DNA of 64,000 nt, taken from Schmidtea polychroa (Eukaryota). Shown piece after piece: positions 277 through 50,406 of the stretch (its first letter is position 1; the number at the start of each line of letters is the position of its first letter). A program made the position numbers and the translations under genes. The notes beneath the pieces are model-generated. The model was not told the DNA's origin. It saw nothing but the letters and a program-made list of their open reading frames with translations, and searched no databases. Where the stretch lies: NCBI GenBank assembly GCA_044892525.1, contig CM097885.1, positions 3,350,001-3,414,000 on the forward strand, in the 5' to 3' direction.

Positions 277-3200
277 ATGATATTGTCATATCCCGATAGG
301 CACCTCCATATGCCATGGGATAAATAATTCCTCAGAAAGTCGCTGTAGTCCCTATTATTGATCTCATTGAACAACATTTTTGAATCGATCAATTTATTTG
401 TTGACAATTCTTCATTTATTATTTTTTCAAATTCTACGAGAATTTTTTGGTAAATTTTTTCCTTTAATGAATAATCAAATTTTGTGTGAATGTTGATTTG
501 GAATATTTCATCGATTAGATCAATGATTGATCCGATTTTACGGTTGATTGCATATCGATTACAATCGATCTGCAATCGGTAGAGTAAACAATTCCAATAA
601 TCAATTCAAACAAACCGAATTTTCTGGTGCTGCACTTTCACAAGGATTTGTGGCGATTTTATCATTAAAATCTTCAGTGAAATTCCCCGATTGGCCAATC
701 GGATCCTAAACGCAAATCAAATATATATTTAGCGCAATTCTATTGGATCAAATTAAAGAAATACCTATTTCATATTTTACCACGTGACAGTCAATAAAAC
801 CGCATATAATATTACAAAATAATGAATAATTTATATTATAATAATATCTACAACATATCAAAAGCTAATATTTTTATAAATATATATTTTCTTATTGTTA
901 AAAAAGTATTTTTAAATATTGAAACACGCCATTTTGTATAGAATTTCTCTCTCATGTCAATGGCATACAACTTTACATAGCCAATTGTGTATATGCCGAC
1001 AAAACCGCAGAAAATCGAGAACTGAGAGAAGAGAACCTACTATTGAAATTGAAATCGACAATCTTGAAGGAACCTTGTTCACCCCTCCAGATGAAAGAAT
1101 CGATCTAGCGCGTTCACAGATTGGGACATTGTCGAGACAGCCAGGTTCACTGAAAGTAATAATACAAGAGTAGTCACAGGCATTGTATCAGGTATATACC
1201 AAACGGAGTTGGAAACGCGGGTCACCGGTCTGGTATTAGCAGAAGGAATAATATATTGCATACCCTTCATCTGACATTGACGTCGGAGATTATGTTATCC
1301 GCCTCTTGCGCAGGATGTTCGTCACTGGTAACCACCGCATCGATCCAACCTTTTTCGATCCCTCCAGTTTCTATTCCATTTATTGACCTCAGTAGCTCGA
1401 CCCCAGTTCCTCCAAGCGTCAAGCCCAATAGGCAAAGCCTTTCGCGTTCCGATCTAAATGCAAAGAAGCAAAAAAGGAAGGACATAGCATAGCGCAAGTT
1501 ATTCTCAGATCTTGTTCCACCCGAGTTGGATCTGGAGGTGGCGGAGTTGAGATTTACCCTATCTGCCGGATGTCAACGTCTTTGAATTAGACGACCTATT
1601 GTACAACATAGAAAAAAAGTGACCGTTGACTGGCCTAACTTTGATCAACGAGTGAAGATATTCATTATTTTTGTCTACAATAATAATATGAATTGAATGG
1701 TTTTCAAGTTGTTGTATTTTTTTTGATAGTTAAATATGAGTATAATAATCTCCATCCCTAGATTTCCGTTGTTACTAGTACGTGACAAATACAGAATTTC
1801 ACTTTACGAACGAACCTTCATCAACCAGTGTTGGGATTTGGTAGATAACTGACTCACTTCCAAGGATATCTTTGACGTAAGACTTTCTATTGGCAGTCGC
1901 GAACCCGATTGAGAGTATGGGAGAGAGTAGTTTTAAGGCAGAAGCTCACCTGTCTCCTGACTCTCAACGGCAGTATACATCAATAACATGACAGGTGTCA
2001 TGGGTACATTGGTCGAATAGTCACAAATCATGGTCGGTACTAAAAGCCGATACAACCCACACATATGTTTCCTGTTAATCAGATCTTGTTTCCTTTTACA
2101 ATTTTAGTTCTTGAAACGCCAACATAATTGGGACTTGCACTGGGTATCATAAGGTTTACGCTATTAACTTTTTTTGTAAATTATCCAACAAAAATTATTT
2201 TTATATCCGTACTTAAACGCGAAAGGTGATCGGATTAAAAAATAAAAAAAAGAAATATAAGAATATAATACATATAATAATAGAATGCAGCACATACCTT
2301 AAAGTTATCTATAATATATTTCATATAGTCACTACCTCACTGAGTTCCTACAAAATACTATAATGTTTATTGGGGCTCATGTTTGGCTTTAAATTTTACT
2401 GTGTTTAGATAGAATTCGTTTTGAAACACGCGGAATCCACGAATAATAATTTTGATATTATTTGAGAATTATTACTGAATTTTAAATATGCAACATCTTT
2501 GAACTCCGGGACGTCGGTAATTACAACGAGAGTTTCTTTTGCATTTTCTGTACTTTTCGTTTAAAAAAATAAAAATTTATCACCATCTAAAAGAAATAAA
2601 GTGTCTAGAAGGAAAGAAGAAAAAACGATTTGTATACGGAGATATTTGATTGCTTTACTGCACACATTACTTATAACATATTTTATCAGACAAATTAAGA
2701 AAGGAAATAATAAATTATATTACAATAATTATTAATTTAAAATAATTTTCCTGGAAATCGATCAAAATGTTGAGGTTCTAAAAGTAAATTATTAAATTAT
2801 ATAGTTCAGATTAAAAGGAAAACCGAAATTGAATGGCGGTCAAGCAGAGAAGCAATGGCAAAGAAAGATATGATTAAAATAGAACTATAAAAGGGTACAA
2901 TCAGACATGAAATGGAAAAATGCGCAAACCTGAGGAAGTGGAATAAAGTGAAAAGTTATCGAAATTGAATCTAGAAAACGGGAGAGGGGTAGATTAGGGG
3001 ATGGTGAAGAAGACAGTGAGCAAGAAATTGTTAGAAAATGTTTAGAAAGGGTCCTAAAACAGACAAATGTGAAAAAACGTAAGATATTAATTAATTAATT
3101 AATTGGCTAATGGGAAACCCGAGCTAATGGGAAACCCGAGCTAATGGGAAACCCGAGCTAATAGGAAACCCGAGCCAATGGAGAACCCGATCGATGAAGA

Positions 3201-5100
3201 AAACCCGAGCGCGGCAATTTGGAAGGATAAACAAATGGGGAATTCAGAGAGCAATTATCCAAACAGCCAGATAAACGAGGGTAAACAAAAGAAGGAGAAT
3301 TAGGAAGAGGGTCAACAGAAATAGCTAATTAGGGAATTATAACTAAGGAAGTCAAAACCAATTAGGTCAAAAATAGGGCAATTACAACGATTATGGGAGT
3401 ATATAAGGAAACTCAAAATTCACATAATCGGCTACAGCCTTAGGTAGGGAAGAAGAAAAAGACATTAGGAGTTAGAGGAATAGAATAGAAGAAGAAAAAG
3501 AATTATAGGAAAAACTGAAGAGTTGGAGTTGTAAATTTTTATAAAACAAATATACGTTGGGAGTTTGTGTTTATTGATTTTGGAACACGCGGAGTCAGAG
3601 TAACCAACGGTTGATTTTGATATCATAAAATCAAACAAAAATAAAACTTGAAATTTTCCTTGAATTTTTTTTTCATATCTTGGGGATTAATTGATGGCCT
3701 TTGTGAGTGACATCTGGTGCATATCGCCCTGTTTGACGAATGAATTAATTGTGAATAAATGATTGTTTGATTAAATGTATGATGTAATGGGTTGATGTAA
3801 TTGTTCAAATATTTTTATGTAGTACTTTTATGTAGCATCCCTTATTATGGCAATGGAAACCTCATTGGAAATATAATGATCATAGGAAGCCATTTACCTG
3901 CCAAGGATATTCTATTTTGACATCACCACTTGAGGATATTGAAGCTATTTCTTGTAACTTCTCAATAATCTCCATTCTCTGATCGTCAGATATGATGATT
4001 TGCAATAAATCAAGCAAACGCACTAGGAAACTTGGCCGACATTCATTTATGGAGATGACTTTATCAAATTTTAACCTCAATGCTTCCATCGTGTCGCCTG
4101 AAAGCATGCCAGACTTGCTATCAATGTCGAGTTCTTTTGAAATATAAAATTAATATTATTTCACACGAATCCATCATTGACAATACCTGATTTTAAATAA
4201 GACAAATCAAAGTTTTCTCTAGCATCTTCAAAGCCCGATCGTAAGGATTCGTTCGACAAATCAAGAGACTGAAAATAAGAAACAGTTGAAAACAACAGTG
4301 CTGAAAAGCATTAATAAATATGAAACAAAATATTGATGGATAGTCTAGAAAAGAAATGAAAAGTTCATGAAAGGCTAGATTTTATTTCTTAAATACATTT
4401 TGTTTCTCCTGGACAGACTTTATCTATTACTCTCATAATATAATCATTTATCATCAATACTTAACCACATACCTTTGCATTTCTTCACCATTTTTCTTCG
4501 CCATCATAAAGCTTATATGATCTAAAGAGTTTTTATAAACAGTTTCTATAAACCGTTCCTTTAAACAGTTCAAAGAGTTCCTACAAAGAGTTCATATAAA
4601 GAGTTCCTACAAAGAATTGCTACAGAGTTCCTACAAAGAATTGCTACAAAAAGTTCCTACAAAGTGTTACTACAAAGAGTTCCTACAAAGAGTTCCTAAA
4701 AGGAATTCCTATAAAGAGTTGCTACAGAGTTCCTACAAAGAATTGCTACAAAGAGTTCCTACAAAGTGTTACTACAAAGAGTTAGTACAGAGTTCTTACA
4801 AAGAGTTCCTACAAAGAGTTCCTACAAAGAGTTCCTACAAAGAGTTCCTACAAAGAGTTACTACAAAAAGTTACTACTTATTAGTAAAGAAAATCTGAAT
4901 ACTCTAATAATAAAATAAAAATATATACAAACCAATCCATTACAATTTCGATCTCTTACGCCAGAATTATTCAATTTGTTAACTTTGCACTCTAAATCAC
5001 TTAATGCTTTCTTTACCTTCTCTTTGAATATCTCCATTTTGTCCATAGAATCCTTCATTTCCATGATATCTCTTTTTATACTTCCAACTTTCTTGGACTA
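277..5100 (-). CDS. Probable exons of a multi-exon host gene, product unknown (approx. 277-706, 3898-4135, 4187-4268, 4473-4521, 4935-5100)
   Basis: Open coding-like blocks with minus-strand splice signals such as TTTCAG|...AAATCAG|GTATTG, TTTAG|...GCAAAG|GTATGT and TGGCAG|GTAAAT; no recognisable domain; outer boundaries approximate. Confidence 0.45.
3107..3210 (+). repeat. 17-bp tandem repeat GCTAATGGGAAACCCGA, about 5-6 copies, in a purine-rich repeat remnant
   Basis: Units visible directly. Confidence 0.85.
4525..4878 (+). repeat. Minisatellite of about 14 bp (CAAAGAGTTCCTAC-like)
   Basis: Tandem degenerate units; explains the repetitive ORF at 4617-4898. Confidence 0.9.
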
Positions 5101-21900: not shown

Positions 21901-24730
21901 CAGAAGAATTATTTCTCCTAATATTAATAACAGTAATTCTCATCAAAATAAATCAGAAAAATATCAGTTAATTAATTAGAGTTTTGAATCAGTTGATTAA
22001 ATTAATTCCAAAAAATATGGACGGTTTTCAGGACTATGATAAATTTTGAATTAGGTCATGGAACGGGGGGATCGGATGGACGTCTTACTCGCAGATCTAA
22101 ATCAATTGGTCACACTGGATGGCATTGAAGAAGATAATAAAAACTTGTTATGCATCGCTTTTTATCATTTCTTTTGTAAGCTATTGTAAAATCATTTAAC
22201 AATATTTCAATAATAAATTTTCATATTTGTGAAAAACGCGATGGGTCAAAGCTGGGGATTCTATTTGAGCCGCTATGGCAGTTCTTGCCAAAATTTTTTG
22301 ATAGTAATTTCTTTATTATTATAGCAAATATTTTCAATAATAATTTTGTAATTTAATTTATTGTTTTTAAGGGAAACCCATGCAATCTTTGATAAGCTTT
22401 CAAATAATGGAAGACGTTGTATAGAAACTCCAAAACATCGTTTAAATTATTAAAACATCGAATTAAAAATCGAAATTAAAAGATATTAGAAAATTTGAAG
22501 CCGAAAACCAAAGATTTCTAATTGAAATTCTTGCCCCTGTTGACAACAGCAACAAGCCATCAATATACAAATGCGAAGGGTGTGTTGAATACTTAGAGGA
22601 AATAGAACATATGGCTATTACTCACTATTAACTCACTTTTCCTCAATTGTAGATTTAGAGTCGAAAGACATAATACGTTAATCAATGAGCGAAGAGTGGA
22701 CAAACAAGACAACCAAGCGATGGTTCTGGATGACAACGACAATATTTACAGTAGAAATTATGAGAAGGCACGTAAGTACCAAGTGGATGATATCTCACAA
22801 TGAATTAAAAATAAAGGAGCATGAGGTAGGTTTTGGAGCAGTCACTCTTCCCAAAAAAATTGATAACGTCTATGAGATCGCTTGTGTTGCCACCATGCGT
22901 TGACGAATTAAAAAAGAACAGGAAAGATTGACTGCATGCATGATCAACGAGGATCTATTGGGGAAATATGCGAAGACTGTTAAAAAAGCATAAGGAAGAA
23001 CTCTTTTTATAAATTTTTTGATGCTTTTATAAGCTAAAAAATCTTTTTGATGATATTTATAAAATATTTTAATTATATATCAAGATTATAATCAAGATGG
23101 AAGAAATGTTCCAAAAATAAAGAATAGACTTTCATATTGTGATCCTGAATTATTAGCTTATAGAATCAAGAAATCAACAGGAATCAATATAGAGGAAATT
23201 ATACGAATGCATTACGAATCTGTGCTGGAATCAAGATAGAAGAAATGTTCCCAATTATAAAGAATCGACTTTCATTATATTTGGAAGGTGGAAAAATAAA
23301 AATTAATAATATATCTAATAATGTAAAACCCTTAATTGACACATTTTTCGATGAGGGAATTGGAGCTTTATGAAGTAGTTGGATTGGAAAAAATAACCGA
23401 AATATGAGAAATAGTGGTACCTACAGACCAAAGCGAGGTTTCAGGAATGTCGTAACCACAACGAGAAATAGGGCTACCTGTGGATCAAGATGCGAGAAAC
23501 CTAAAGGATGAATTTCTGATAAAGTCGCGAGCAGAAACTGAAATTTCTAAGGACAATGGTGAGGTTCAAAAAGAATAACCATTTAGACTTTGCAAACTTT
23601 CCAAAAATATAGAACGGAATGCATTCTCACTTAAGCTGATCTAAAATAATAGAGGATATGTTCCTGAAAAGAGAACACAGAAAACGTCCTGAAGTAGTCA
23701 AAAAAGCGGTGAAAAAAGCATTAAGAAAAGAGCATTATGGTGTACTTCAGAGTCTCTATAAAACTGATCGAAAAGAACGATTATCAGGAAGCCAAATAAG
23801 AACCTTAGGCATATAATGAATTGTTGCATGCGATAGTTTGATGACGAGTCGCATCTCCAACAATGCAGTCAAGATAAAAGGTAATTTGTATTATCCCTGC
23901 GAAGAAACCTACCGTAAACCGAATCTAACTGCATAAATAACTCGAAATCATCAGCAACTACAAAAACCTATTTAAATAAAATTTTAAAAAATAAGTTAAA
24001 AATTAAATATTACTTAAAATGCTTCATTAAGATTATTTTGTAATTAATTGATTAATAAAACAAATTAAAAATAAAATTTATAAATAAAATTTGAAATTTG
24101 GAAATGTTTAGTTTTATTAATAAATTTTTTAGAGTTTTAAATTTTAATATAAATTTTAATATTTATTTCACATTCAGAATTTTACCAAGGGAAATATTTA
24201 CTATTCGAAATATTTTATTAAAACTTTAACAATTTATTAACAATTTTTATGTAATTTTATATATAAATTTGCGGATTTTTTATATGTTTTTCTGATATTT
24301 AATTATAATTTTCTTTTGTAAAATAAATGATTTGTGAATAAGATAAACTTTGTCAATTGTTGCTTCTGATTGATGATAAATTGAGAATAGAGAACTGGAA
24401 CCTTGGCTATACCCTTCTGTAATTCATTAGGAAATTCACTCACTACCTTTCTGTTTTTTAAAATTAATTGCAAAAATGTTAATCGAGATATTTAGAATTT
24501 CAAATATTATAATTATATGTTTGTAAAATATTTATTGAAAATATTTATTGAAAATAATAATTATTTCCATACCGTGAAAACCAGGTGGATACTAAAGCTT
24601 GTGCGACCGTGTGAGCGGTGATGTCACGGACAGGAAAGGCTTCAAACCATCGTGTTTTCCGATCAATCGTTGTCAGGAAGTAGTAGGATGTGTCACCACT
24701 GGCACATCCTCCCAGGGGGGATAAAAAAAT

Positions 24731-24985
24731 TTTTTCAAGGTCAAATTTTAAACAAAGACATATGACTCATCAAGGTCATTGAAACAAAGACAATGACTCA
24801 TTCGAGGTCACTGGGTGACTCATCAAGGTCATTGAAACAAAGACCATGGCTCATCAAAGTCATGGGTGACTCTTTAAGGTCAAGGTCATATTTTAAAGGA
24901 CAAGGTTATATTTTTAAGGTCAAGGCCATATATTTTAAGGTCAAGATCATATTTTTAAGGTCAAGGTCATATTTTAAGGTCAAAC
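24731..24985 (+). promoter_or_regulatory. Subterminal motif array: TGACTCA (AP-1-like), TCAAGGTCA (NR5A/Ftz-F1-like), AACAAAG (HMG-box-like)
   Basis: Multiple exact motif copies; function inferred. Confidence 0.5.
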
Positions 24986-25131
24986 CTTCACCCAAGGGTA
25001 TTATTCGAAAGGTATTTACGGACCAAGCGTCCGAAGTGGGAAACATGAAATGGGTCAGACTACTATAAAAACATAAAAATTTTAAATCTTAATCTTGATG
25101 GCTTGAAAAATAAAAAAATTTATGAAATAGT

Positions 25132-25199
25132 AAAACTGCTCTGAGAGGACAGTGGTATTTGTTTGTTTTTTTTTCACTGTCCTCTCAACAGTTTTTTTT
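25132..25199. other. Stem-loop followed by a T-tract
   Basis: TGAGAGGACAGTG (25142-25154) pairs perfectly with CACTGTCCTCTCA (25175-25187). Confidence 0.7.
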
Positions 25200-25360
25200 G
25201 ATCCGGATCATTTCAACCTCTTTCGTTTATAAAATCTCTTCCAATATACAAGCTGGCCAGACTCATACATCAGAATCAATTCGATAATAGCAGCTTCTCG
25301 GTTTTAAGCGTGCTGCTCGAAAGTACAAATGAATTCGAAAGCGAATCCGAAAGAGGTCCG

Positions 25361-25453
25361 AAAACAACTGAGAAATAAATGTGCACATTATGGGATCGAT
25401 CCGGGGTGTGTTCGAAAGACTGGTGGCGATAATTACCGGTTCGCCACCACACC
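25361..25453 (-). ncRNA. Putative Pol III (type-2 promoter) structured RNA 2
   Basis: A box TGGCGAACCGG and B box GGATCGATCCC starting 44 nt apart (tRNA positions 8 and 52); stem TGGTGGCGA/TCGCCACCA; T4 at 25364-25361. Confidence 0.55.
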
Positions 25454-25590
25454 CGTTTCAATAATTTTTTTTTCATATTTATGTTTAAAAATTAATTAAT
25501 TAATAAAAAAATAAAATATACAAGATACCCACACTATTTTCAAAATTATTTTCAAAATTATTTTCAAATTTTTAATATTATTTTATGTTG

Positions 25591-25672
25591 AAAAAAAATA
25601 ATGTCATTTGGGATTTGAACCACTATCCATTTGAACCACTGTGCCAGTCTATTCCCACTGCGCTATTAGGGT
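25591..25672 (-). ncRNA. Putative Pol III (type-2 promoter) RNA 1; tRNA-like promoter but no cloverleaf
   Basis: Consensus A box TAGCGCAGTGG and B box GGTTCAAATCC starting 44 nt apart, then a T8 terminator. Confidence 0.65.
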
Positions 25673-25776
25673 TCGGATTTTTGTCATTTTTTAAAATTTT
25701 ATATTTATAAAATTCTAAAAATTTTAAATCTTAAAAACTAGCAAGCTGCGCAATTGCTAATTTAGTAATATAAAAA

Positions 25777-27048
25777 ATGAATAATAAAAATAAATTAAAT
25801 CTTGATTACAATAAAGAATTTATGCATGAAATTAAAAAAATTGATATTTTAAAAATCTCTCCAACCTCGGGATCTATTGCAAACTTAAATCGTAGAGGTG
25901 ATATAGTTTTTCAATCTCTTCAAACATCAAATCCTATAGATGTTTGTAATGCAAAATTATATTACAAAATTGAATTAGAAATTGAAGCTAATAAAAATAT
26001 AACCTTGGAAAACAATTTCTTTCCAAACTTATTCAGTAACATGAGATTAAAACTAGGATCATCAGAAATTGAAACTGTTTTACATCCAGGAGTATATTCT
26101 ACAATGTTAAATTTTATTTTAACTGGTTGTGATTATAAAAATGAATATGGTGAATTAACAGGTTGGATTCCTGATGTTAATAAAGGGGATTTAGATAAAG
26201 ATGGTTTAGATGTAAATTTTGGATACTATAAAAGAGTTGAACTTTATAAATCTAAAAAATTTGAAGGTTATTTTGAATTAAAACACTTATTTGGATTCCT
26301 TCAAAACTATAACCGTATACTTCATAATGTTTTTATAGAATTAACCTGTAATAGAATAGAAGGTGATAAAAGATTGTTCTATGGAGGTGTAGATACAAAA
26401 GCTAAATTAAAATTATCAACACTTGAATTACATATACCTGAATGGACTTTAAATCCTCAATCTGAAATTAAACTCCTTGAAAGATTAAATTCCAACAAAT
26501 CTATAAATGTAAATTATTTAAATAGAGTCTGTAGTGAATTTAGTATGACAGAGGGTTCAACATATTCTAAAAAGGTAGCAAATTTAGCATACCGACCGAG
26601 ATATATCTTTATTGGATTCAAAGAAGTAGATTTATCATTCCATAAAAATAACAACTTGTTTATTCAAAAGATTGGAGATGATAATTTAAAATCAATACAA
26701 ATTCAATTAAATAGTTCTTATTATCCAATAAATAGAATGGAATTTAATATTGAAAATAATGAAAACATATTCCCATATCTAAATTATATTGAAACATGTT
26801 ATGATTTTAAAGTTGAACCGCAATTAAGTTTAGAAGATTTCAAAAATTTATATTCTATATTTTGTATAAATGTATCAGATCAAGATGATCGTCTACCTAT
26901 AAATAATGTTGATGTTACACTTCATATAACAAAGGATTCTAATTTTAAAGCTAAAGTATATACATTAATATTAGAAGAAAAGAAAATAGAAATGAAATTA
27001 TATGGTGGAAAGATTTCAATTATTGAAAATGTACAAGGAGATTCATAG
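25777..27048 (+). CDS. Major capsid protein (double jelly-roll), element D
   Basis: 423 aa; LENNFFPNLFS..LKLGSSEIETVLHPGVYSTM, RPRYIFIGF, LNSSYYP and YSIFCIN motifs; gene context. Confidence 0.8.
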   Translation: MNNKNKLNLDYNKEFMHEIKKIDILKISPTSGSIANLNRRGDIVFQSLQTSNPIDVCNAKLYYKIELEIEANKNITLENNFFPNLFSNMRLKLGSSEIETVLHPGVYSTMLNFILTGCDYKNEYGELTGWIPDVNKGDLDKDGLDVNFGYYKRVELYKSKKFEGYFELKHLFGFLQNYNRILHNVFIELTCNRIEGDKRLFYGGVDTKAKLKLSTLELHIPEWTLNPQSEIKLLERLNSNKSINVNYLNRVCSEFSMTEGSTYSKKVANLAYRPRYIFIGFKEVDLSFHKNNNLFIQKIGDDNLKSIQIQLNSSYYPINRMEFNIENNENIFPYLNYIETCYDFKVEPQLSLEDFKNLYSIFCINVSDQDDRLPINNVDVTLHITKDSNFKAKVYTLILEEKKIEMKLYGGKISIIENVQGDS

Positions 27049-27063
27049 TTTTTAACTTTTAAA

Positions 27064-28442
27064 ATGTCTTATTGGAAATGTGAAATTTGTAATTGTCAAG
27101 TTAGAAAACATCATAAAGCAAGTCATGTTAAAACTAAAAAACATACATCTCGAGTGGGAGGAGACCTTCAATCTTCAAAAACAACATCTTCAATATTAAA
27201 ACCCTTTACTACAGAAAAATATCCAGGTGAAAGACATTTATTTAAACACAACTATACTGGACCTGGAACACGTCTAGATATTAGATTAGATGAAAATAAT
27301 AATCCAAAACCCGGAGAAGAACCAATAAATAGAATTGATCAAGCAACTTTAAAACATGATATTGCTTACAATTCTGAAGATATTAGAGATAGACATGTTG
27401 CTTATGTTAATTTAATACATGATTTAAATAATATCCAAAACCCATCAACCCAAGAAAAGATTCAAAGAGCTCTAGTTAAATTAGCAATGAAAGGTAAGAT
27501 CTTTTTTGGAGCCGGAGCCACCTTTGGAGCCGGACACCCTAGAATAGCAAAAGATGTTGCTAATAAAAAGATTATTCAACAAGCAGAGATTGAGAATCAA
27601 CTCGAGAGTGCATCCAAGACTAGTTTATTATTCCCAACAGAATCACAAATAAAATATGCCAACGAATTGCACCATGAATTTAGAAAAAATAAAAAATATT
27701 TAAAAGTTCAAGTACATGAAAAAGATCATACTTGGTCTGCTGATTTAGTCTTTATGCCAACAAAATCATCAGACCCTGAAAAATATAAAATAATTTTAAC
27801 AGTAATAGATTTATATACGAGATTGGCTTTTGCAAATGTTTAGAAACCAAAACAGGATATTCAATTACAGAAGCATTTGAAAATATATTTGAAGAACATC
27901 AAAGAATTCCAAAATATTTATGGTGTGATAAAGGAACAGAATTTTATAACAAAGTTTTTACAAAGTTTTTAAATGAAAATGATATTAAATTATATTCAAC
28001 AGAAAACGAAGGAAAAGCAGTCGTATTTGAAAGATTAAATTGAACATTAAAAAATAAAATGTGGAAATATTTTACTGCTATTGGAAAACAAAAATGGAAC
28101 AATGAATTGTTACAAAAGATTGTAAATGAATATAATAATGATGTACATAGTTCTATAAAATCAACACCTTTAAATGCTTCCTTGAATCCTTTAAAACTTA
28201 TAAATCCTGAAGCCGTTAAACTGGTAAATGAAAAACCAAAGTTTAAAATTGGTGATCGAGTAAGAATATTTAAATATAAAAATAAATTTGAAAAAGGATT
28301 CACAGCAAAATGGACAAATGAAATTTTTATTATAAATAAAATACATTATACAATTCCAATAACATATGGTATCATCGATGAAAATAATGAAAAAATATTA
28401 GGTAGATTTTATAATAATGAACTACAGAAAACAGATTTCTAA
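27064..28442 (+). pseudogene. C2H2 zinc finger + parvovirus-type PLA2 + retroviral-like integrase fusion; frameshift near 27841 and stop near 28041
   Basis: CEIC..H..H; HNYTGPGT and LKHDIAY; WSADL..VIDLYTR, LWCDKGTEFYN, ERLN*TL, FKIGDRVRI..FEKGFTAKWTNEIF. Confidence 0.88.
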
Positions 28443-28453
28443 GTCGACAAGCT

Positions 28454-29239
28454 CTAAAATAAACATTTCCATATTTCACCTTCTTCTCTATCCAAATAAA
28501 TATAATTATATTTTTCTTTCCAATGATTATCTGCAAACATATCAAACATACTCTTATCAGGTTCAACATTTGAAAATAAATCACTATAAATCATATTCTT
28601 ATCACGCTTTTCTAATTTAAAAAATGTAAAACAATTAGAATTATTTCTTATTGAGTTTTTATCCAAAGCATAATAAGTTTGAGAAATATAAATAACATTA
28701 CAATTATTATGTCGACCTCGTGTAAAATAACTCTTTTGAATCTCTTGATTTTTCATATTAACAACATCATCAAATATAACTAGATTCTTTTTATCTTTAG
28801 GAAGTAAATCACAATGTAAAACATCTTCAGGTTTATTAGAGAATAAAACTTTAATCCATTCATTTTCAGAAATGTAATCATTTTTATTATCAATATCTGA
28901 TTCTAAAATAGTTTCCTTGTACCAATCAATCATATCACAAGGTTGAAAAACCTCATCAGGACATCTATGTTGATTTTTAAAAATATCAATTATAGCTTTT
29001 TTAGTTAATTTAATTTCAAATCCACATTTCAAAAGTTGTAATTCTGGTTGATTTATGGTTGTAGAATAAAAGATTAAATTATTATAATCTAAAAAACCAT
29101 CCTCGAGTAATATTCTCAAAAGAAGTACATTCTTTCCACATCCAGAAGACCCAAAGATTAATAATCTAAAATTATCAGGAAATAATTTATTATTAAATTT
29201 ACTCTTGTGCCGAGTTAAAATTGGTTTCCAAGTATCCAT
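28454..29239 (-). CDS. A32/FtsK-like genome packaging ATPase, element D
   Basis: Walker A GSSGCGKN, Walker B LVIFDD, FTRGRHNN..YISQ motif. Confidence 0.92.
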   Translation of the reverse strand: MDTWKPILTRHKSKFNNKLFPDNFRLLIFGSSGCGKNVLLLRILLEDGFLDYNNLIFYSTTINQPELQLLKCGFEIKLTKKAIIDIFKNQHRCPDEVFQPCDMIDWYKETILESDIDNKNDYISENEWIKVLFSNKPEDVLHCDLLPKDKKNLVIFDDVVNMKNQEIQKSYFTRGRHNNCNVIYISQTYYALDKNSIRNNSNCFTFFKLEKRDKNMIYSDLFSNVEPDKSMFDMFADNHWKEKYNYIYLDREEGEIWKCLF

Positions 29240-29255
29240 TTTTATTTATTATAAA

Positions 29256-29780
29256 ATGACAACTGAAGAATCTTTACAAGAATTAATAAATTCAAATAAA
29301 AATAAATCAGTAGTAATGGATGGAAAAAAATATTTTATTGGAAAACATGTAAAAGAACAGGTTAAAGAAAGACTGAAGACTGGAGGGATTCTTCCCCTAA
29401 TGGCTTTAATACCTGCAATCATTGCAGGTTTATCAGGTGCTGCTGGAATAGCTGGAGGAATTGCAACTACAGTTCAAAAAGCTAAAGAATCTCAAAAGAC
29501 AGACCTAGAAAAAGAAAAATTACAAACTGAAATCGATTCAATGAAAAAGAAGAGTAAGGGGCTATATCTCAATCCTTATAAAGGTCGAGGTTTATATCTC
29601 GATCCATATAAAGGTAGAGGTTTAAATGATTTTTTAAAAAATCAAATTTCTACATCTTCATCTTCATCTTCAAAAGATAAAGATGATTTAAAAAAAATAT
29701 GTAAATCTTTAAAGAATGGATGCCTCTGTAAAACTAAAAATGGTAAAGGGTTGTATTTAAAACCATTTAAGGAACAATAA
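29256..29780 (+). CDS. Putative virion core/membrane-active protein
   Basis: GG followed by hydrophobic ILPLMALIPAIIAGL (adenain-like site) and three GxGLYLxP repeats. Confidence 0.6.
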   Translation: MTTEESLQELINSNKNKSVVMDGKKYFIGKHVKEQVKERLKTGGILPLMALIPAIIAGLSGAAGIAGGIATTVQKAKESQKTDLEKEKLQTEIDSMKKKSKGLYLNPYKGRGLYLDPYKGRGLNDFLKNQISTSSSSSSKDKDDLKKICKSLKNGCLCKTKNGKGLYLKPFKEQ

Positions 29781-29793
29781 ATTGTACATAAAA

Positions 29794-30558
29794 ATGGTAT
29801 ATGAAGAAAGATTAGCACTTTTAAAAAAATTACAATCAGAACAAGACAAGTATAATATAAAAGATATAACCCAACATAGTGAATCTATAACAGCAAATGA
29901 AGAAATGACACAACAACAACAACCAACAATTAAAGCTATAGAATCTCTAAAATCTAAAGAGGTGGTAGATAAGAGTCCAAGGACTAATGAATTGGAGTGG
30001 CATGAAGATGAAATGATTATAAAACCTCTTAAAGTTGATCCTAAAATTAGAGAGGGGTTAAGTGAAACAATTAGGCCCACATTTCAGATTAATGCTAAAG
30101 GATATCAAATAATAACAATTAATAAACAAAACTTTATTTTAGGTATATTTGAAGATAAACCACATTTTCGTTCACAAAATCTTTATAATAATGAATATTT
30201 AGACTTTGAATTTACAGATGATTTTTATAAATTAATTTGTGGATATCCTTCAGATGATATTAAAGAAATTGAAAAATATTTAGATTTTATAAAAATAATA
30301 GGAGGTAGTTCAAAAGCAAAATATATTCAAGATTTAAAGAATTATTTAAATAAAAATGAAAAGGGTTATATTGTTAAAGAAGGTGATAGACTAGAGGGAA
30401 AAGATTTCATCAGTCTTTTTATAGAATTGAGAAAACTATTAGCTGCTAAAAAAGCAGGACATAATAATTTAAATTCTGATATTTTAAAGATTTCAAAAGA
30501 TTTATTTAAACAAGGAATAATTTCAAAAGATAAATTTAATAAATATACAAATGACTAG
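29794..30558 (+). CDS. Polinton protein of unknown function
   Basis: Intact ORF in the morphogenesis block; C-terminal LRKLLAAKKAGHNN motif. Confidence 0.65.
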   Translation: MVYEERLALLKKLQSEQDKYNIKDITQHSESITANEEMTQQQQPTIKAIESLKSKEVVDKSPRTNELEWHEDEMIIKPLKVDPKIREGLSETIRPTFQINAKGYQIITINKQNFILGIFEDKPHFRSQNLYNNEYLDFEFTDDFYKLICGYPSDDIKEIEKYLDFIKIIGGSSKAKYIQDLKNYLNKNEKGYIVKEGDRLEGKDFISLFIELRKLLAAKKAGHNNLNSDILKISKDLFKQGIISKDKFNKYTND

Positions 30559-30979
30559 CATATTAGATTTTTTAAAAACATTTGGAATAAATGCAAAAAC
30601 AAATTTTGATTTAAAAGATTATGCAGATTATTTAAATTTAAAAATTAAAATATTAATGAATGATGAATTGTCAAGTCTGAAAGGACTAAAGGATAATATA
30701 ATAATCAATTATGAAAATTCAAATGAAAAAGGATGTCATTAGGTTTGTATATATAATAAATCTATATACTTTGATTCTTTTGGGATTAAACCCACTAAAG
30801 AAGTAGAAGACTATCTTGAAAAAGGCTACACCTATAATTCTTTACAAGTTCAACCTAATAATACTAAAATATGTGGTATTACAAGTTTATATGTTTTGTA
30901 TAGATTGAATGCGTCCAAAGGAGAGGGCTTTGAATCTATAATCCAAGAAATTTATAAAGATTTAAAACCTCTATTATAA
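30551..30979 (+). pseudogene. Adenain-like cysteine protease with a premature stop (TGG to TAG)
   Basis: GCH*VC, YFDSFG and QVQ...ICG continue in the same frame past the stop at 30740-30742. Confidence 0.85.
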
Positions 30980-31017
30980 AAATGGAAGATAATTTAAAAA
31001 AAATGGTCAGATAAATA

Positions 31018-31740
31018 ATGTCAGATAAATATTCAAGAAGTTTATTAATAAATTCAAATGAATCAGATTTTAGTATAAATTTTGAAGATTCAATAAATTT
31101 AGATCAAAATTTAAATTATGAATTAGGACTCTTGTGGTTTAGCTGCTTTAATACTATTTTTAATATAAATATTATTAATAATAAATTTGATATATTTAAG
31201 AGGGATATTAACCCCAAGTCAGTAGTTGAAGACCGCGAGACTATAGTAATCGAACCAGGATCATATGAAATAGTAGATTTAGCTAAAATAATTCCAAAAA
31301 AAACAAATGGAGCTGTAGAAATAAAAGCAGATATTCAAACTTCAAAATGTGTTGCAACTTTAAAAATTTATGGACTTGATGTTGATGCGTCTAGTTTCTT
31401 TCATACTATTTTAGGTTTTGAAGTCGGAAAATATAGACAATCACCTATTAAATCTAAAAATATTATACAAATAACAAATATAAATTCTATAAATATAGAG
31501 TGTGATTGTATAATGGGATCATACAATAATGGTAAACATGCAAATATTTTATATTCCTTTCCTTCCAATGTTGTTCGAGTTGGATATAAAATGGTTGAAA
31601 GAATGAATCCTCCAAATTATTTACCTTTATGTAGAAAAAACCTAATGGATATTCATTTTAGAATTGTTGATGAAAATGGAGAATTAATAAATTTTAATGG
31701 AGAAAAGATTTCAATGTGTTTACATTTGAAACAAGTTTAG
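31018..31740 (+). CDS. Minor capsid (penton-like) protein, element D
   Basis: YELGL..FNTIFNI, IEPGSYEI, INIECDCI.GSY.NG, YLPL..I.DENGELINFNGE motifs. Confidence 0.8.
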   Translation: MSDKYSRSLLINSNESDFSINFEDSINLDQNLNYELGLLWFSCFNTIFNINIINNKFDIFKRDINPKSVVEDRETIVIEPGSYEIVDLAKIIPKKTNGAVEIKADIQTSKCVATLKIYGLDVDASSFFHTILGFEVGKYRQSPIKSKNIIQITNINSINIECDCIMGSYNNGKHANILYSFPSNVVRVGYKMVERMNPPNYLPLCRKNLMDIHFRIVDENGELINFNGEKISMCLHLKQV

Positions 31741-31749
31741 ACTATAAAA

Positions 31750-32664
31750 ATGAATTATAATAAATTAGGATTATATAATGATGGATTAAAAGATGAAGAT
31801 GTTATAAACCTTACAGAAAAAAGATTTGTTAATGAAGTAGGAGATTCAATGAAGGGAGATTTAAATTTAAATGCTCACAAGATAAAAGATTTAGGTCCTC
31901 CGATTGATGACTTTGATGCAACTAATAAAAAATATGTAGATGAAAAACTTGAGTCTCTTAAATCGAGTAAGCTTAATAATATCGAACAACGATTAAATGA
32001 AGAAACTCAAAGGTTAACTGACACAATATCAATTTTAAAAAATAAAAGACTTATGCATAAACAACTTATGGATAATAAAATTAATACAATATATAATATA
32101 ATAAATGAGATGATTACATCATTTAATGTAAGACTTGTTAAATTAGAGTCTCATACAACACACATTAACACAACACACACTATTAGAAAAAGAGCTGCTG
32201 AATTAGAACAGAATAATACATTATTACCCAATAGATATAAACATTTTTTAGAACCAACTTTAATAATAACAAATAGTAAAGAATGGTCTTGTTTTATGGT
32301 TTTAAAGATTATTGATCCTTATTTCTTTTTATTTAATGATGATGATGAGACAATGAAATGGTTTGTAAAATGTGATTATAATAGTAAGTTTGAAAAGGAT
32401 GAAGTTATAATAACTGGTTATGATTTAACACATGGATATTGGCATGATAAAACTGATTCACATAAAATACATAAAGTTAAAAGTAAGAATATTATTTTTA
32501 AAAGCACACTTGTAAGTTATATAGATTTAATATTTTATGAAAAAAAGGTTGATGTTGATGAAGTTCGTAAAGCGTTGATAGAATTGTATAAAGATATTCT
32601 CTCAAAAAGAGCTTCTTATGATATTCGAGTGTTGGTACCAGATAATAAAGTCTTATTTTTTTAA
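31750..32664 (+). CDS. Fibre-like protein
   Basis: GDSMKGDLNL..HKI.DLG.P.DD.DATNKKYVD fibre motif followed by a coiled coil. Confidence 0.65.
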   Translation: MNYNKLGLYNDGLKDEDVINLTEKRFVNEVGDSMKGDLNLNAHKIKDLGPPIDDFDATNKKYVDEKLESLKSSKLNNIEQRLNEETQRLTDTISILKNKRLMHKQLMDNKINTIYNIINEMITSFNVRLVKLESHTTHINTTHTIRKRAAELEQNNTLLPNRYKHFLEPTLIITNSKEWSCFMVLKIIDPYFFLFNDDDETMKWFVKCDYNSKFEKDEVIITGYDLTHGYWHDKTDSHKIHKVKSKNIIFKSTLVSYIDLIFYEKKVDVDEVRKALIELYKDILSKRASYDIRVLVPDNKVLFF

Positions 32665-32672
32665 TTATTAAA

Positions 32673-33148
32673 ATGGAAGTACAATATCCAAAGATTCCAT
32701 CAGCTCCTACAGAACTTGAAGTCATGAGAGTGAAAGAATTTAAATCAGAAACCTTACATTTACAAGACTTGTTGAAGCATTATAAAAAAATTAAAAAAAG
32801 ATGGAATAAAGGGAATACAGCTTTAAAGATTATTACTCCTTAGGATTTACATCTGCAATACTTACAATTATTTTACCTATAACTTTACCGGCTATTACTT
32901 TTGCACCTGTAATACTTGAAGTATTTCTGTTGCAGATTCTTTCTTGACTGAAATACTTTCTTTATCTTATACTTCAAAAAAGAAAAGTTTATATCGTGAA
33001 GTTTGTCTGACAATCGACTTGGGGATATCAAAATTATTTTAATTTCAATTAAAAGCTTTGGAAGATGGAATCCTAACAGATGAAGAAATAATGAAATCAA
33101 ATCAAATAATAAGGGATATTAAAAATGAAGTTATAAAGTTGAAAACTT
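32673..33148 (+). pseudogene. Frameshifted membrane protein with an N-terminal YPKIPSAP motif
   Basis: ATG at 32673, basic helix, then a hydrophobic stretch broken by frameshifts. Confidence 0.5.
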
Positions 33149-33557
33149 CAGGTCACCGCCAGCACAAAGACATTTTTTACCCCACCCCCCCCCCCCGGCC
33201 GGAAAAAAAAAAAATTTTTTTTTCAACTTGAGAACAAAGACATATGACTCATCCGATGACTCATCAAGCATTCAAGGTCGACTTGAGAACAAAGACATAT
33301 GACTCATCAAGCATTCAAGGTAGACTTGAGAACAAAGACATATGACTCATCAATGATATATAATTATCATTATTTTTAAAAATATTATTATTTCTAATGT
33401 CTTTGTGCTCGCGGTGACCTAATATTTGGCCTGCCAAAAGTTATCGTTCCCATCAACTTATTTCATCGATCGATAGCTTATTTTGAAGCTTGGTGCCAGA
33501 CCTTTCGAATGAGCTATTGTTGTTATCACCATCTTTATTATTAACATTTTCCCAAGA

Positions 33558-38118: not shown

Positions 38119-38556
38119 TTAGAAATCGACCAATGAAATTATCTCATTTCGAACATTGTCAACAAATTCTCTATACTCCAAATTTCTCAACCCCAACATG
38201 ACAACCTTTCCACTAGCAAACACGTTGACACATATAGGGTTATATTTTAATAGTCTTAGTGCCAGAAACAATTCCGGTTCAAACATACAATCATATTTTT
38301 TCGACATGTTATATAGATTGATACTATGTCCCATATCCATAGTAACGGTAATTGATTGGATTATAATATTATTTATTCGATATTGTAATTTATTAATATC
38401 CAAAGGTTTCTTACATCCCATGATTCTGCATTTACCAGTCTTGAAAAATATTATCGGATATTTCCCGCTTCTATCGATAATTTGCTGGGGTTTCCCTGGT
38501 GGGAACCTCATATTCGATACATCAAAATTTCCTCGATAATTTATATTTGCTAACAT
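38119..38556 (-). CDS. TATA-binding-protein-like, element A copy
   Basis: IFFKTGKCRIMG and FEPELFLAL..VFASGKVVMLG; the conserved Pro is Leu in this copy. Confidence 0.85.
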   Translation of the reverse strand: MLANINYRGNFDVSNMRFPPGKPQQIIDRSGKYPIIFFKTGKCRIMGCKKPLDINKLQYRINNIIIQSITVTMDMGHSINLYNMSKKYDCMFEPELFLALRLLKYNPICVNVFASGKVVMLGLRNLEYREFVDNVRNEIISLVDF

Positions 38557-48636: not shown

Positions 48637-49074
48637 TTAGAAATCAACCAATGAAATTATCTCATTTCGAACATTGTCAACAAATTCTCTATACTCCAAA
48701 TTTCTCAACCCTAGCATGACAACCTTTCCACTAGCAAACACGTTGACACATATAGGGTTATATTTTAATAGTCTTAGTGCCGGAAACAATTCCGGTTCAA
48801 ACATACAATCACATTTTTTCGACATGTTATATAGATTGATAGTATATCCTATATCCATAGTAACGGTAATTGATTGGATTATAATATTTTTTATTCGATA
48901 TTGTAATTTATTAATATCCAAAGGTTTCTTACATCCCATGATTCGACACTTACCAGTCTTGAAAAATATTATCGGATATTTCCCGCTTCTATCGATAATT
49001 TGCTGGGGTTTCCCTGGTGGGAACCTCATATTCGATACATCAAAATTTCCTCGATAATTTATATTAGCTAACAT
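48637..49074 (-). CDS. Minimal TATA-binding-protein-like factor, 145 aa
   Basis: Two TBP half-repeats: LANINY..IFFKTGKCRIMGCK and IQSIT..INL..FEPELFPAL..VFASGKVVMLG. Confidence 0.88.
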   Translation of the reverse strand: MLANINYRGNFDVSNMRFPPGKPQQIIDRSGKYPIIFFKTGKCRIMGCKKPLDINKLQYRIKNIIIQSITVTMDIGYTINLYNMSKKCDCMFEPELFPALRLLKYNPICVNVFASGKVVMLGLRNLEYREFVDNVRNEIISLVDF

Positions 49075-49817: not shown

Positions 49818-50345
49818 ATGTTTCTAAAAGCAAGGGTGAAAAATATTAGGAAATTAAGAAAAGGTATTAGAAAGACTATTAAAGTTCCAAAAGTTCCACC
49901 AACAACTAGTTATACACCGTCTAAAAAACTTGTAACTGAAAATTTCTCTGCAATGAATCTTATTTCGAAAAATCCAAAACCTAAGCGTAAAACCCGTAAA
50001 ACCCGTAAAACCGGTAAAAAAGTAGTTAAAAATCATCGCAGTTTTCCATTTTTTAATGCATTGTTAAAGGCCCCGAGTATGAAAAGAATGAATATATTGC
50101 AATCATTCCCAAATTTTGTTGTCGATGATTTACTCAATATTATACTTAAAGTAGTCAAAGGCAAAATTAAAATCAGTAAATCAAAAAAGCATTTATTGAG
50201 CAAACATCGGAAACCGTTGTTATCTTTAGTAAATAATAAAAATCGTAAGCAAATGAGGAAAATTATATATAAACAACAAGGTGGATTTATTGGTGCATTG
50301 ATACCTCTGGCATTATCATTATTAGGTGGAGTTACACAAACATAA
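49818..50345 (+). CDS. Basic virion core protein with a putative adenain cleavage site
   Basis: K/R-rich; QQGG followed by hydrophobic FIGALIPLALSLLGG. Confidence 0.72.
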   Translation: MFLKARVKNIRKLRKGIRKTIKVPKVPPTTSYTPSKKLVTENFSAMNLISKNPKPKRKTRKTRKTGKKVVKNHRSFPFFNALLKAPSMKRMNILQSFPNFVVDDLLNIILKVVKGKIKISKSKKHLLSKHRKPLLSLVNNKNRKQMRKIIYKQQGGFIGALIPLALSLLGGVTQT

Positions 50346-50406
50346 ACAATGGGTGCTAATCCTTCATTACCCGACATTAAATTTTATTTTAAATCTTCTT
50401 GTTGTA

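What the first reader, a model, noticed from the sequence alone, without database searches (positions are those of the whole stretch)
25361..25672. Two tandem Pol III-type small RNA genes in Polinton D (possible VA-RNA analogues)
Seen: two minus-strand units about 220 bp apart, each with an A box and a B box starting exactly 44 nt apart (TAGCGCAGTGG/GGTTCAAATCC and TGGCGAACCGG/GGATCGATCCC) and followed by T-tracts. Neither folds as a cloverleaf; unit 2 forms a long GC-rich hairpin in AT-rich surroundings. Known: that spacing matches tRNA internal promoters, and adenoviruses, which are related to Polintons, use paired Pol III VA RNAs against host defences. Inference: analogous decoy RNAs or TFIIIC insulators beside the capsid promoter.
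Basis: partly seen in the sequence, partly recalled or inferred. Interest (0 to 1): 0.82.

Follow-up and report, generated by a model that had tools for sequence, protein, structure and literature searches.

The report
tRNA-like modules in a Polinton arm
A virus-like mobile element that is very abundant in this genome carries, beside its capsid gene, a short row of worn-down tRNA gene copies that still keep the signals read by RNA polymerase III, so they may make small viral RNAs, though no RNA has been seen yet.

Summary
Both minus-strand units have A- and B-box-like motifs exactly 44 nt apart, and this is far beyond chance: 0 of 300 simulated windows gave a pair at 44 nt.

Both units belong to the element. 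They lie between the terminal repeat and the capsid (MCP) gene of a truncated ~14-kb Polinton copy, and they recur in every sister arm that could be aligned (14 of 19 distinct places sampled by MCP).

Unit 1 is a decayed tRNA gene. It is a paralogue of two further modules (U3, U4) found in other subfamilies, and U3 still passes Rfam's tRNA threshold. Left arms carry two to four tRNA-type units (U2 plus one to three U1/U3/U4 modules), all in one orientation. Across 21 unit-1 copies the A box, the B-box core and the T8 terminator are nearly invariant, while the flanks vary (3 of 29 versus 25 of 53 variable columns).

Unit 2 is weaker. It is not related to the tRNA modules, its boxes degrade in most subfamilies, and its hairpin is no better than shuffled sequence.

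The VA-RNA analogy is not supported: there is no stable fold and no covariation. The nearest analogue is the cluster of tRNA-like genes at the left end of murine gammaherpesvirus 68. Expression could not be tested. This scan noted similar Polinton features in two other genomes (e1-7468399, e1-7468532).

The parts
25059..33153 (+). Truncated copy of a ~14-kb Polinton/adintovirus-like element. It lacks about 210 bp of left terminal repeat and about 6 kb at the right, including the DNA polymerase gene.
   Evidence: Homology with other genomic copies spans exactly this range. Full-length copies reach ~14.2 kb, with ~250-bp inverted ends and a protein-primed-type PolB (PF03175).
25777..27048 (+). 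Major capsid protein gene (double jelly roll), transcribed away from the units.
   Evidence: PF21738, E 1.1e-24. More than 3000 first-look candidates in the genome.
25591..25676 (-). Unit 1 (module U1), a decayed tRNA-derived unit. A box 25665-25655, second A-like motif 25646-25636, B box 25621-25611, T8 run 25598-25591.
   Evidence: Paralogous to modules U3 and U4 (z 12.7 and 9.1). A box, B-box core and T-run are nearly invariant in 21 copies.
25361..25453 (-). Unit 2 (module U2). A-like motif 25446-25436, B-like motif 25402-25392, T4 at 25364-25361. It contains the helix GGGTGTGGTGGCGA / TCGCCACC / CACACCC.
   Evidence: Sequence 92-97% conserved across subfamilies, but the boxes are not specially kept.
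25535..25585 (.). AT-rich 12-nt tandem repeat between the two units.
   Evidence: Tandem Repeats Finder: period 12, 2.8-4.6 copies.
25276..25476 (-). 66-codon open frame covering unit 2. Judged not to be a gene.
   Evidence: Frameshifts between and within subfamilies. 10 synonymous versus 25 non-synonymous changes, against 23% synonymous expected.
25205..25460 (-). Conserved segment with long-range inverted repeats; it includes unit 2.
   Evidence: Fold z -3.14 on the minus strand (1 of 200 shuffles as good) and -1.77 on the plus strand. Substitution-level conservation 0.89-0.98.
25130..25200 (.). Strong hairpin just inside the terminal repeat: a 13-14-bp perfect stem plus 7 more pairs, with a variable loop. 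On the + strand it is followed by T8.
   Evidence: z -9.2 (minus) and -6.75 (plus), 0 of 200 shuffles as good. Present in 13 of 15 mapped arms.

Best explanation
The two units are part of a variable array of tRNA-type modules in the left arm of this Polinton family. The array lies between the terminal inverted repeat and the capsid gene, and every module points away from the capsid gene.

Unit 1 is a decayed copy of a tRNA gene. Its paralogue U3, present in other subfamilies, still scores as a tRNA and has an anticodon loop reading CUGCAUU. Unit 1 has lost the cloverleaf but keeps an exact A box, the B-box core GGTTCAAATC 42-44 nt downstream, and a run of at least 8 T at the place of a tRNA gene's terminator.

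The most likely mechanism is inferred, not shown. TFIIIC binds the boxes, and RNA polymerase III starts about 10 nt upstream of the A box (around 25675) and stops in the T-run. This would give an unstructured, non-decoding tRNA-like RNA of about 80 nt from each module. What the RNA or the bound TFIIIC does for the element is unknown.

Unit 2 is a separate, strongly conserved sequence. Its box-like motifs are weaker. It may be a much more decayed module, or it may be a cis-acting element that resembles the boxes only by accident.
For: Not chance: 0 of 300 simulated windows.

Part of the element:
- All 40 scored hits of 2598 candidates cover the whole 340 nt at 93-100% identity.
- In a sample picked by MCP protein rather than by the units (20 loci, 19 distinct places), 14 places carry U1 and U2 in the same order and orientation.
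- The other 5 either lose all similarity within about 40-75 nt of MCP (4) or are masked (1).

tRNA origin:
- U3 hits Rfam tRNA over the full model at 32.4 bits (gathering score 29) in L064, and at 25.1 bits in L069.
- U1, U3 and U4 align far better than shuffles (z 9.1-14.0).
- All A-box variants (TAGCGCAGTGG, TGGCGCAGTGG, TAGCGTAGTGG, TAGCTTAGTGG, TAGCTCAGTGG, TAGCGGAGTGG) fit TRGCNNAGTGG with 0 mismatches. They differ only at the R and N positions.

Selective conservation:
- In 19 distinct U1 sequences (21 copies), variable columns are 3 of 29 in the A box, B-box core and T-run, against 25 of 53 elsewhere in the unit (Fisher p 0.0007).
- At minor allele >=15% the counts are 1 of 29 against 18 of 53 (p 0.002).

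Module number varies. U1 is doubled in 3 arms, U3 is present in 4 and U4 in 3. 4 of 4 further U4-U3 hits lie in the order MCP-U4-U3-U1-U2. In one subfamily U4-U3 lies inside the left terminal repeat and is absent from the stretch around the expected right end.

Precedent: tRNA genes occur in Polinton-like viruses, virophages and related viruses (passages of PMC12220804 section 16; Fig. 6 legend of PMC8502044).
Against: The family is young (MCP DNA 92-95% identical between sampled copies). Nearly the whole arm is 0.9 or more conserved at substitution level, so conservation is a weak test, and copies are not independent data points for the Fisher test.

U1 RNA has no stable or conserved fold and no complementarity of 14 nt or more to the element's own genes, so no RNA function suggests itself.

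At the strict pattern GGTTCGANNCC, U1's B box has 2 mismatches in 10 of 15 arms. U4's B box is degraded to GGTTCAATTTT.

Unit 2 is weaker on several counts:
- 12 of 18 other arms have a 1-nt deletion that makes the spacing 43.
- Only 6 of 15 arms keep the B box at <=1 mismatch.
- It shows no similarity to U1, U3 or U4.

Twenty metagenomic relatives (MCP 31-53% identical, 42,109 bases) have no such box pair and no tRNA, so the feature is confined to this lineage.
Confidence: 0.55

Rival explanations
1. Inert relics. An ancestor captured tRNA genes, as Polinton-like viruses do. They have decayed, and they persist only because the family is too young to have lost the motifs. On this view nothing binds or transcribes them to any effect.
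For: No cloverleaf. Overall divergence is low and the whole arm is about equally conserved. U4's B box is already degraded. Module number varies freely between subfamilies. Distant relatives lack the units.
Against: Within U1, variation avoids the A box, B-box core and T-run (3 of 29 versus 25 of 53 columns). The leader and tail, which correspond to the former acceptor strands, have diverged into at least three variants. A-box variants differ only at unconstrained positions. DNA with intact boxes, spacing and terminator is normally transcribed by Pol III (established knowledge of type-2 promoters, recalled).
Confidence: 0.2
2. DNA-level elements. The boxes matter as TFIIIC-binding boundary or insulator sites, and the conserved unit-2 segment and hairpin act as packaging or replication signals near the genome end. 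Any RNA made is a by-product.
For: All modules lie between the terminal repeat and the first gene. The B-box core is invariant in 21 of 21 U1 copies. The unit-2 segment is conserved as sequence, carries inverted repeats on both strands, and has an AT-rich tandem repeat next to it. tRNA genes and lone B boxes acting as chromatin boundaries is established knowledge (recalled).
Against: The T-run terminators (8 or more T in all 19 distinct U1 variants) and the A boxes are kept as well, and a pure TFIIIC site would not need them. The distance to the MCP start varies from 66 to 811 nt.
Confidence: 0.15
3. One reading: paired structured decoy RNAs working like adenovirus VA RNA I and II.
For: Two same-strand units with type-2 boxes in a relative of adenoviruses. 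Full-length copies encode a protein with a JAZ-type dsRNA-binding zinc finger, which is at most suggestive.
Against: Fold z-scores are -0.39 (unit 1) and -0.78 / -1.27 (unit 2). There is no consensus structure in 19 U1 variants. The unit-2 helix has one compensatory pair (L058) but an uncompensated A.C mismatch in L059, an inserted bulge in 5 arms and a deletion in the outer stem in 12 arms. No Rfam VA hit. The predicted length of 80-95 nt is short against about 160 nt for VA RNA (recalled).
Confidence: 0.04
4. Unit 2 is the start of a small protein gene. The frame is 66 codons here and 94-127 codons in copies with 16-bp inserts, and it is transcribed divergently from MCP.
For: Open frame 25476-25276, longer in 7 of 19 copies. 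The segment is GC-richer than its surroundings.
Against: The A-run after the ATG varies by one base either way in 7 of 18 other arms. A 1-nt deletion separates subfamilies, without a compensating insertion in 7 arms. Stops or frameshifts occur in 8 of 19 copies. 10 synonymous versus 25 non-synonymous changes is as expected without selection. No Pfam family at E <0.01.
Confidence: 0.04
5. The units are host tRNA-derived SINEs that happened to insert into one ancestral copy.
For: A tRNA-type head ending in a T-run is SINE-like. The U4-U3 cassette occupies two different positions in different subfamilies.
Against: Every copy examined lies in a Polinton arm: 40 of 40 scored hits cover the full 340 nt, 14 of 14 alignable arms carry the units, and 4 of 4 extra U4-U3 hits are in arms. 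First-look candidate counts for the units (1206-1457) are below those for MCP (3114-3213). There is no second copy in the window. Only top-scoring hits could be inspected, so free copies are not excluded.
Confidence: 0.02

Closest known systems
tRNA-like genes (vtRNAs / TMERs) of murine gammaherpesvirus 68
   Same: A cluster of several non-decoding tRNA-like units with internal A and B boxes, read by RNA polymerase III, placed at the left end of a linear dsDNA virus genome (passages of PMC4337559: abstract, introduction, plasmid methods).
   Different: The herpesvirus units keep a tRNA-like fold and are followed directly by pre-microRNA hairpins. Here units 1 and 2 have no cloverleaf. The only strong hairpin (25130-25200) lies about 200 nt beyond unit 2, behind T4 runs. 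Expression is not shown. The carrier is an integrated Polinton in a non-mammalian genome.
Adenovirus VA RNA I/II (Rfam RF00102)
   Same: Paired type-2 Pol III units in a virus of the lineage related to Polintons.
   Different: VA RNAs are about 160 nt, highly structured, and sit mid-genome (recalled). Here the predicted RNAs are 80-95 nt with no fold beyond shuffles, no covariation and no Rfam match.
tRNA genes carried by Polinton-like viruses, virophages and related mid-size dsDNA viruses
   Same: tRNA genes inside elements of the same virus assemblage. 558 tRNA calls were reported over a collection of about 8300 genomes (passages of PMC12220804 sections 16 and 29), and predicted tRNA genes are flagged in Fig. 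6 of PMC8502044 (legend seen).
   Different: Those are detectable, presumably decoding tRNAs. Here only paralogue U3 reaches the Rfam threshold, with 3 of 5 anticodon-stem pairs broken. The window's own units fail every tRNA detector.
tRNA-derived SINE heads and extra-TFIIIC (B-box) boundary sites
   Same: Internal A and B boxes kept after loss of the tRNA fold. They may bind TFIIIC and affect chromatin (recalled knowledge).
   Different: No free-standing copies were seen outside the Polinton arms. There is no SINE body or tail; the unit ends in a terminator directly after the tRNA-length part.

Membership tests
tRNA gene (Rfam RF00005 / ARAGORN) | Cloverleaf scoring at or above the family threshold | tested here: not met
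   Units 1 and 2: no hit by ARAGORN, also at -ps70 to -ps90. No Rfam hit at gathering score or at E <=10. Paralogue U3 in other copies scores 32.4 bits against gathering 29 in L064, and 25.1 bits in L069. ARAGORN found none in 51 loci.
Type-2 (tRNA-type) RNA polymerase III gene | A box TRGCNNAGTGG | tested here: met
   Unit 1: 0 mismatches, in 21 of 21 copies. Unit 2: 2 mismatches.
Type-2 (tRNA-type) RNA polymerase III gene | B box GGTTCGANNCC about 30-60 nt downstream of the A box | tested here: met
   Unit 1: 1 mismatch at 44 nt in the window. The core GGTTCAAATC is invariant in 21 of 21 copies, the last base reads A in most subfamilies, and spacing is 42-44 nt. Unit 2: 1 mismatch (T54 to A) at 44 nt in the window; 2 mismatches and 43 nt in most subfamilies.
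Type-2 (tRNA-type) RNA polymerase III gene | Run of T (4 or more) shortly downstream as terminator | tested here: met
   Unit 1: T8 starting 12 nt after the B box, and 8 or more T in all 19 distinct variants. Unit 2: first T4 lies 27 nt after the B box.
Type-2 (tRNA-type) RNA polymerase III gene | Transcription by RNA polymerase III / TFIIIC binding | not testable with these tools
   No RNA run on record held the stretch.
Adenovirus VA RNA (RF00102) | Long, stable, conserved stem structure | tested here: not met
   z -0.39, -0.78 and -1.27. RNAalifold -4.2 kcal/mol on 19 U1 variants. No Rfam hit.
Gammaherpesvirus TMER | tRNA-like fold followed directly by one or two pre-microRNA hairpins in one Pol III transcript | tested here: not met
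   No cloverleaf in units 1 and 2. The hairpin at 25130-25200 lies about 160 nt beyond unit 2's T4 run (25364-25361), and a further T4 run at 25234-25231 lies in between.
Gammaherpesvirus TMER | Several tRNA-like Pol III units clustered at one genome end | tested here: met
   Two to four units per left arm, all in one orientation and internal to the terminal repeat. None at the right end in three full-length copies or in L073.
tRNA-derived SINE | Dispersed copies independent of the carrier element | tested here: inconclusive
   None seen.
Polinton / Maverick (adintovirus-like) | Double-jelly-roll capsid, A32-type packaging ATPase, protein-primed PolB, terminal inverted repeats | tested here: met
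   PF21738 and PF04665 in the window copy. PF03175 in a full-length copy. Inverted ends of about 235-270 nt. No integrase or protease domain was confirmed for this family: one 292-aa frame had no Pfam hit.

The most novel reading that the evidence does not exclude
Polintons of this lineage encode a left-end cluster of RNA polymerase III genes for non-decoding tRNA-like RNAs. These would be the counterpart of the gammaherpesvirus vtRNA/TMER cluster and, functionally, of adenovirus VA RNAs. They would be kept by selection because the RNAs, or the TFIIIC they recruit, help the element against host silencing, which could relate to its spread to thousands of copies. Together with two earlier notes of this scan on other genomes, Pol III-type genes may be a recurrent and so far undescribed feature of Polinton arms.
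Probability: 0.3. Interest if true: 0.75.

Novelty: new variant of a known kind. Interest (0 to 1): 0.58.

Why it matters
Polintons/Mavericks are held to be the ancestors or close kin of adenoviruses and many other eukaryotic dsDNA viruses. In the literature I could search, their non-coding content is not described.

Three full-text searches listed no paper linking Polintons or adintoviruses with VA RNA, tRNA-like RNAs or Pol III genes. They turned up only ordinary tRNA genes in Polinton-like viruses.

If the modules are transcribed, this would be the first case of Pol III non-coding RNA genes in a Polinton. It would show that capturing tRNA promoters for small viral RNAs is older and wider than herpesviruses and adenoviruses.

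The array also offers a natural series from a near-tRNA (U3) to a promoter-only shell (U1). That series could be tested directly with small-RNA sequencing.

If the modules are inert, the finding is a tidy example of captured tRNA genes decaying inside a very successful element.

Tried and rejected
So nothing is known about expression.

Biased first sample. The 19 copies fetched by similarity to the units themselves gave 97-99.5% conservation of 25200-25700. I first read this as strong constraint. I dropped that reading once an MCP-picked sample showed the arm to be modular, and only 76-91% identical when indels are counted.

Small protein gene over unit 2. Rejected.

Acceptor-stem covariation between U1 leader and tail. 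Inspected by eye and with RNAalifold; there is no consistent pairing.

Antisense target of U1-U4 within the element. Only chance matches of 13 nt or less.

Inverted copy of the units at the other end. None in the window or in three full-length copies.

Relatives elsewhere:
- Viral contigs by MCP protein: none.
- Viral contigs by a U1 core pattern: none.
- Metagenome contigs: 20 loci, none with box pairs, tRNAs or similarity beyond AT-rich stretches.

Earlier notes by place or sequence: nothing for this genome.

The third box pair at 24706 lies in what reads like retroelement integrase coding sequence; I took it as chance.

A relaxed ARAGORN call (tRNA-Arg with a 148-nt intron spanning both units, at -ps80 with introns allowed) was taken as spurious.

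A guess at the host species from genome size and chromosome number was not pursued. One literature search on it added nothing.

Full report
**Setting**

The window is part of a 781-Mb, AT-rich eukaryote genome. It holds several Polinton copies.

The finding lies in one of them. DNA homology with other genomic copies runs from 25059 to 33153. This stretch encodes:
- a double-jelly-roll capsid protein (25777-27048, PF21738);
- a PLA2-like protein;
- an A32-type packaging ATPase;
- a weak adenovirus protein-X-like hit.

Full-length copies elsewhere are about 14.2 kb, with inverted ends and a protein-primed-type PolB. The window copy has lost about 210 bp at the left and about 6 kb at the right.

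The two units therefore sit 300-600 bp inside the left end, between the terminal repeat and the capsid gene, on the opposite strand to that gene.

**The observation**

- Unit-1-grade box pairs never arose in 300 simulated windows.
- Unit-2-grade pairs arose at 0.053 per window, and never at exactly 44 nt.
- Local dinucleotide shuffles gave a unit-2-grade pair in 13 of 5000.
- No tRNA detector or Rfam family matches either unit.
- Neither unit folds better than shuffled sequence.

The one truly strong structure nearby is a different hairpin at 25130-25200 (z -9.2).

**A bias I had to correct**

My first set of sister copies came from a search with the units themselves. It showed 97-99.5% identity over 25200-25700, more than in the capsid gene.

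That sample was chosen by similarity to the very thing being judged. A second sample was picked by capsid protein: searches gave 20 loci at 19 distinct places (L053 and L071 are the same place).

In this sample capsid DNA is 92-95% identical, but the arm is only 76-91% identical by BLAST, because it is built of modules that come and go. At substitution level nearly the whole arm is still 0.9 or more conserved. Conservation alone therefore says little.

**What the second sample shows**

Fourteen of the 19 places carry unit 1 and unit 2 in the same order and orientation. Of the other five, four lose all similarity within about 40-75 nt of the capsid start, and one is masked.

Module content varies:
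- Unit 1 lies 66, 112, 323, 355 or about 810 nt from the capsid start codon, and is doubled in three arms.
- Two more module types appear. U3 is in four arms and U4 in three.
- Four further hits of the U4-U3 cassette all lie in the order capsid gene-U4-U3-U1-U2.
- In another subfamily the cassette lies beyond the hairpin but still inside the left terminal repeat. A 2.5-kb stretch around the expected right end holds the inverted repeat, not the cassette.

U3 matches the Rfam tRNA model end to end at 32.4 bits, against a threshold of 29. It has a perfect T arm, a D arm and a T8 run directly after position 73, but its anticodon stem is broken.

U1, U3 and U4 are clearly related to each other (z 9-14 against shuffles). 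Unit 2 is related to none of them.

**Is unit 1 more than a fossil?**

Among 21 copies (19 distinct):
- The A box always fits the consensus with no mismatch.
- The B-box core GGTTCAAATC never changes.
- The T-run always has 8 or more T.
- The leader and tail, which correspond to the old acceptor strands, have split into several versions without consistent pairing.

Variable columns number 3 of 29 in the three control elements against 25 of 53 elsewhere (p 0.0007). The caveat is that related copies are not independent.

Across module types the A box differs only at its free positions.

This is the pattern expected if the promoter and terminator are under selection while the tRNA body is not. 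It is the main reason I favour live Pol III/TFIIIC elements over inert relics.

Against a working RNA, there is no stable or conserved fold and no antisense target in the element.

**Unit 2**

Its sequence is the best-kept part of the arm (92-97% by BLAST), but its boxes are not special.
- Twelve of 18 other arms have a 1-nt deletion that shortens the spacing to 43.
- Nine of 15 arms carry a second B-box mismatch.
- The helix shows one compensatory change against several disruptions.

It overlaps a 66-codon frame that I reject as a gene, because of frameshifts between subfamilies and a neutral substitution pattern.

The wider segment 25205-25460 has long-range inverted repeats (z -3.1). I regard unit 2 as a conserved element of unknown kind. 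It could be a very decayed module or a cis-acting signal.

**Reach of the feature**

Twenty metagenomic relatives (capsid 31-53% identical, 42,109 bases) have neither box pairs nor tRNAs. The feature belongs to this lineage, not to all relatives.

Closer relatives exist in public data (capsid 94-72% identical) but could not be fetched.

**Comparison with known systems**

The VA-RNA analogy fails on structure. The nearest known arrangement is the cluster of eight non-aminoacylated tRNA-like Pol III genes at the left end of murine gammaherpesvirus 68 (passages of PMC4337559), though those keep a tRNA-like fold and carry microRNA hairpins.

Ordinary tRNA genes are known in Polinton-like viruses, virophages and related viruses (passages of PMC12220804; figure legend of PMC8502044).

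My three literature searches listed no report of Pol III-type or tRNA-like non-coding genes in Polintons. I saw only listings and the cited passages, not whole papers or supplements.

Two earlier notes of this scan (e1-7468399, e1-7468532) describe tRNA-type Pol III hairpins near the ends of Polintons in other genomes. I did not test them.

**Verdict**

- Unit 1 is a tRNA-derived, very probably TFIIIC/Pol III-competent module in a variable array.
- Unit 2 is doubtful as a Pol III gene.
- The decoy-RNA reading is not supported.
- Expression is untested.

I rate it a new variant of a known kind, of moderate to good interest.

Noticed in passing
window 25130-25200: Very strong hairpin just inside the terminal repeat: a 13-14-bp perfect stem plus 7 more pairs, z -9.2 / -6.75. 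The stems are conserved and the loop is variable among copies. On the + strand it is followed by T8. Weak microRNA-family look-alike hits only, far below threshold.
   Followed up: partly
window 38119-38556 (-) and 48637-49074 (-): Another Polinton family in the window encodes a protein with a TATA-binding-protein domain (PF00352, E 2.2e-13, tested on the first copy). It sits next to an A32-type ATPase and an integrase-like gene. A virus-borne TBP homologue is unusual.
   Followed up: no
L023:5962-6792 (full-length sister copy; the region is absent from the window copy): A 276-aa protein with a zf-met / JAZ-type dsRNA-binding zinc finger near the right end of full-length copies.
   Followed up: no
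whole genome G000: The family is hugely amplified: 3114-3213 first-look capsid-gene candidates, and most of the 97 and 98 scored copies have open frames without stops. The element looks recently or currently active.
   Followed up: partly
G000:C3:25480009, 25481949, 25483889: The unit-2 stretch recurs three times at a 1,940-bp period. This suggests a tandem array made from part of the left arm.
   Followed up: no
window 25059-33153 versus nine sister copies: Mosaic divergence along the element. Short hypervariable segments (for example 25659-25858, 27459-27658, 29459-30458, 31059-31458) at 62-90% identity sit between blocks at 94-100%. This suggests recombination among variants.
   Followed up: no
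L069 arm 1223-1492 versus L073 1037-1302; c1-type arm 717-928: Subfamilies of the same element have unrelated terminal inverted repeats.
   Followed up: partly
window 24750-24983 and 24560-24720: The left end of the window copy is cut at 25059 by other repeats: 20- and 31-53-nt tandem repeats, and a stretch that reads like retroelement integrase coding sequence. A TAGTAGT(G/C)T motif recurs at similar breakpoints next to the capsid gene in L056, L066, L067 and L072.
   Followed up: no
window 50284-50373 (+): ARAGORN calls a tRNA-Asp (anticodon atc), which overlaps the end of one open frame and runs into the gap before the next. Rfam does not support it at gathering score.
   Followed up: no
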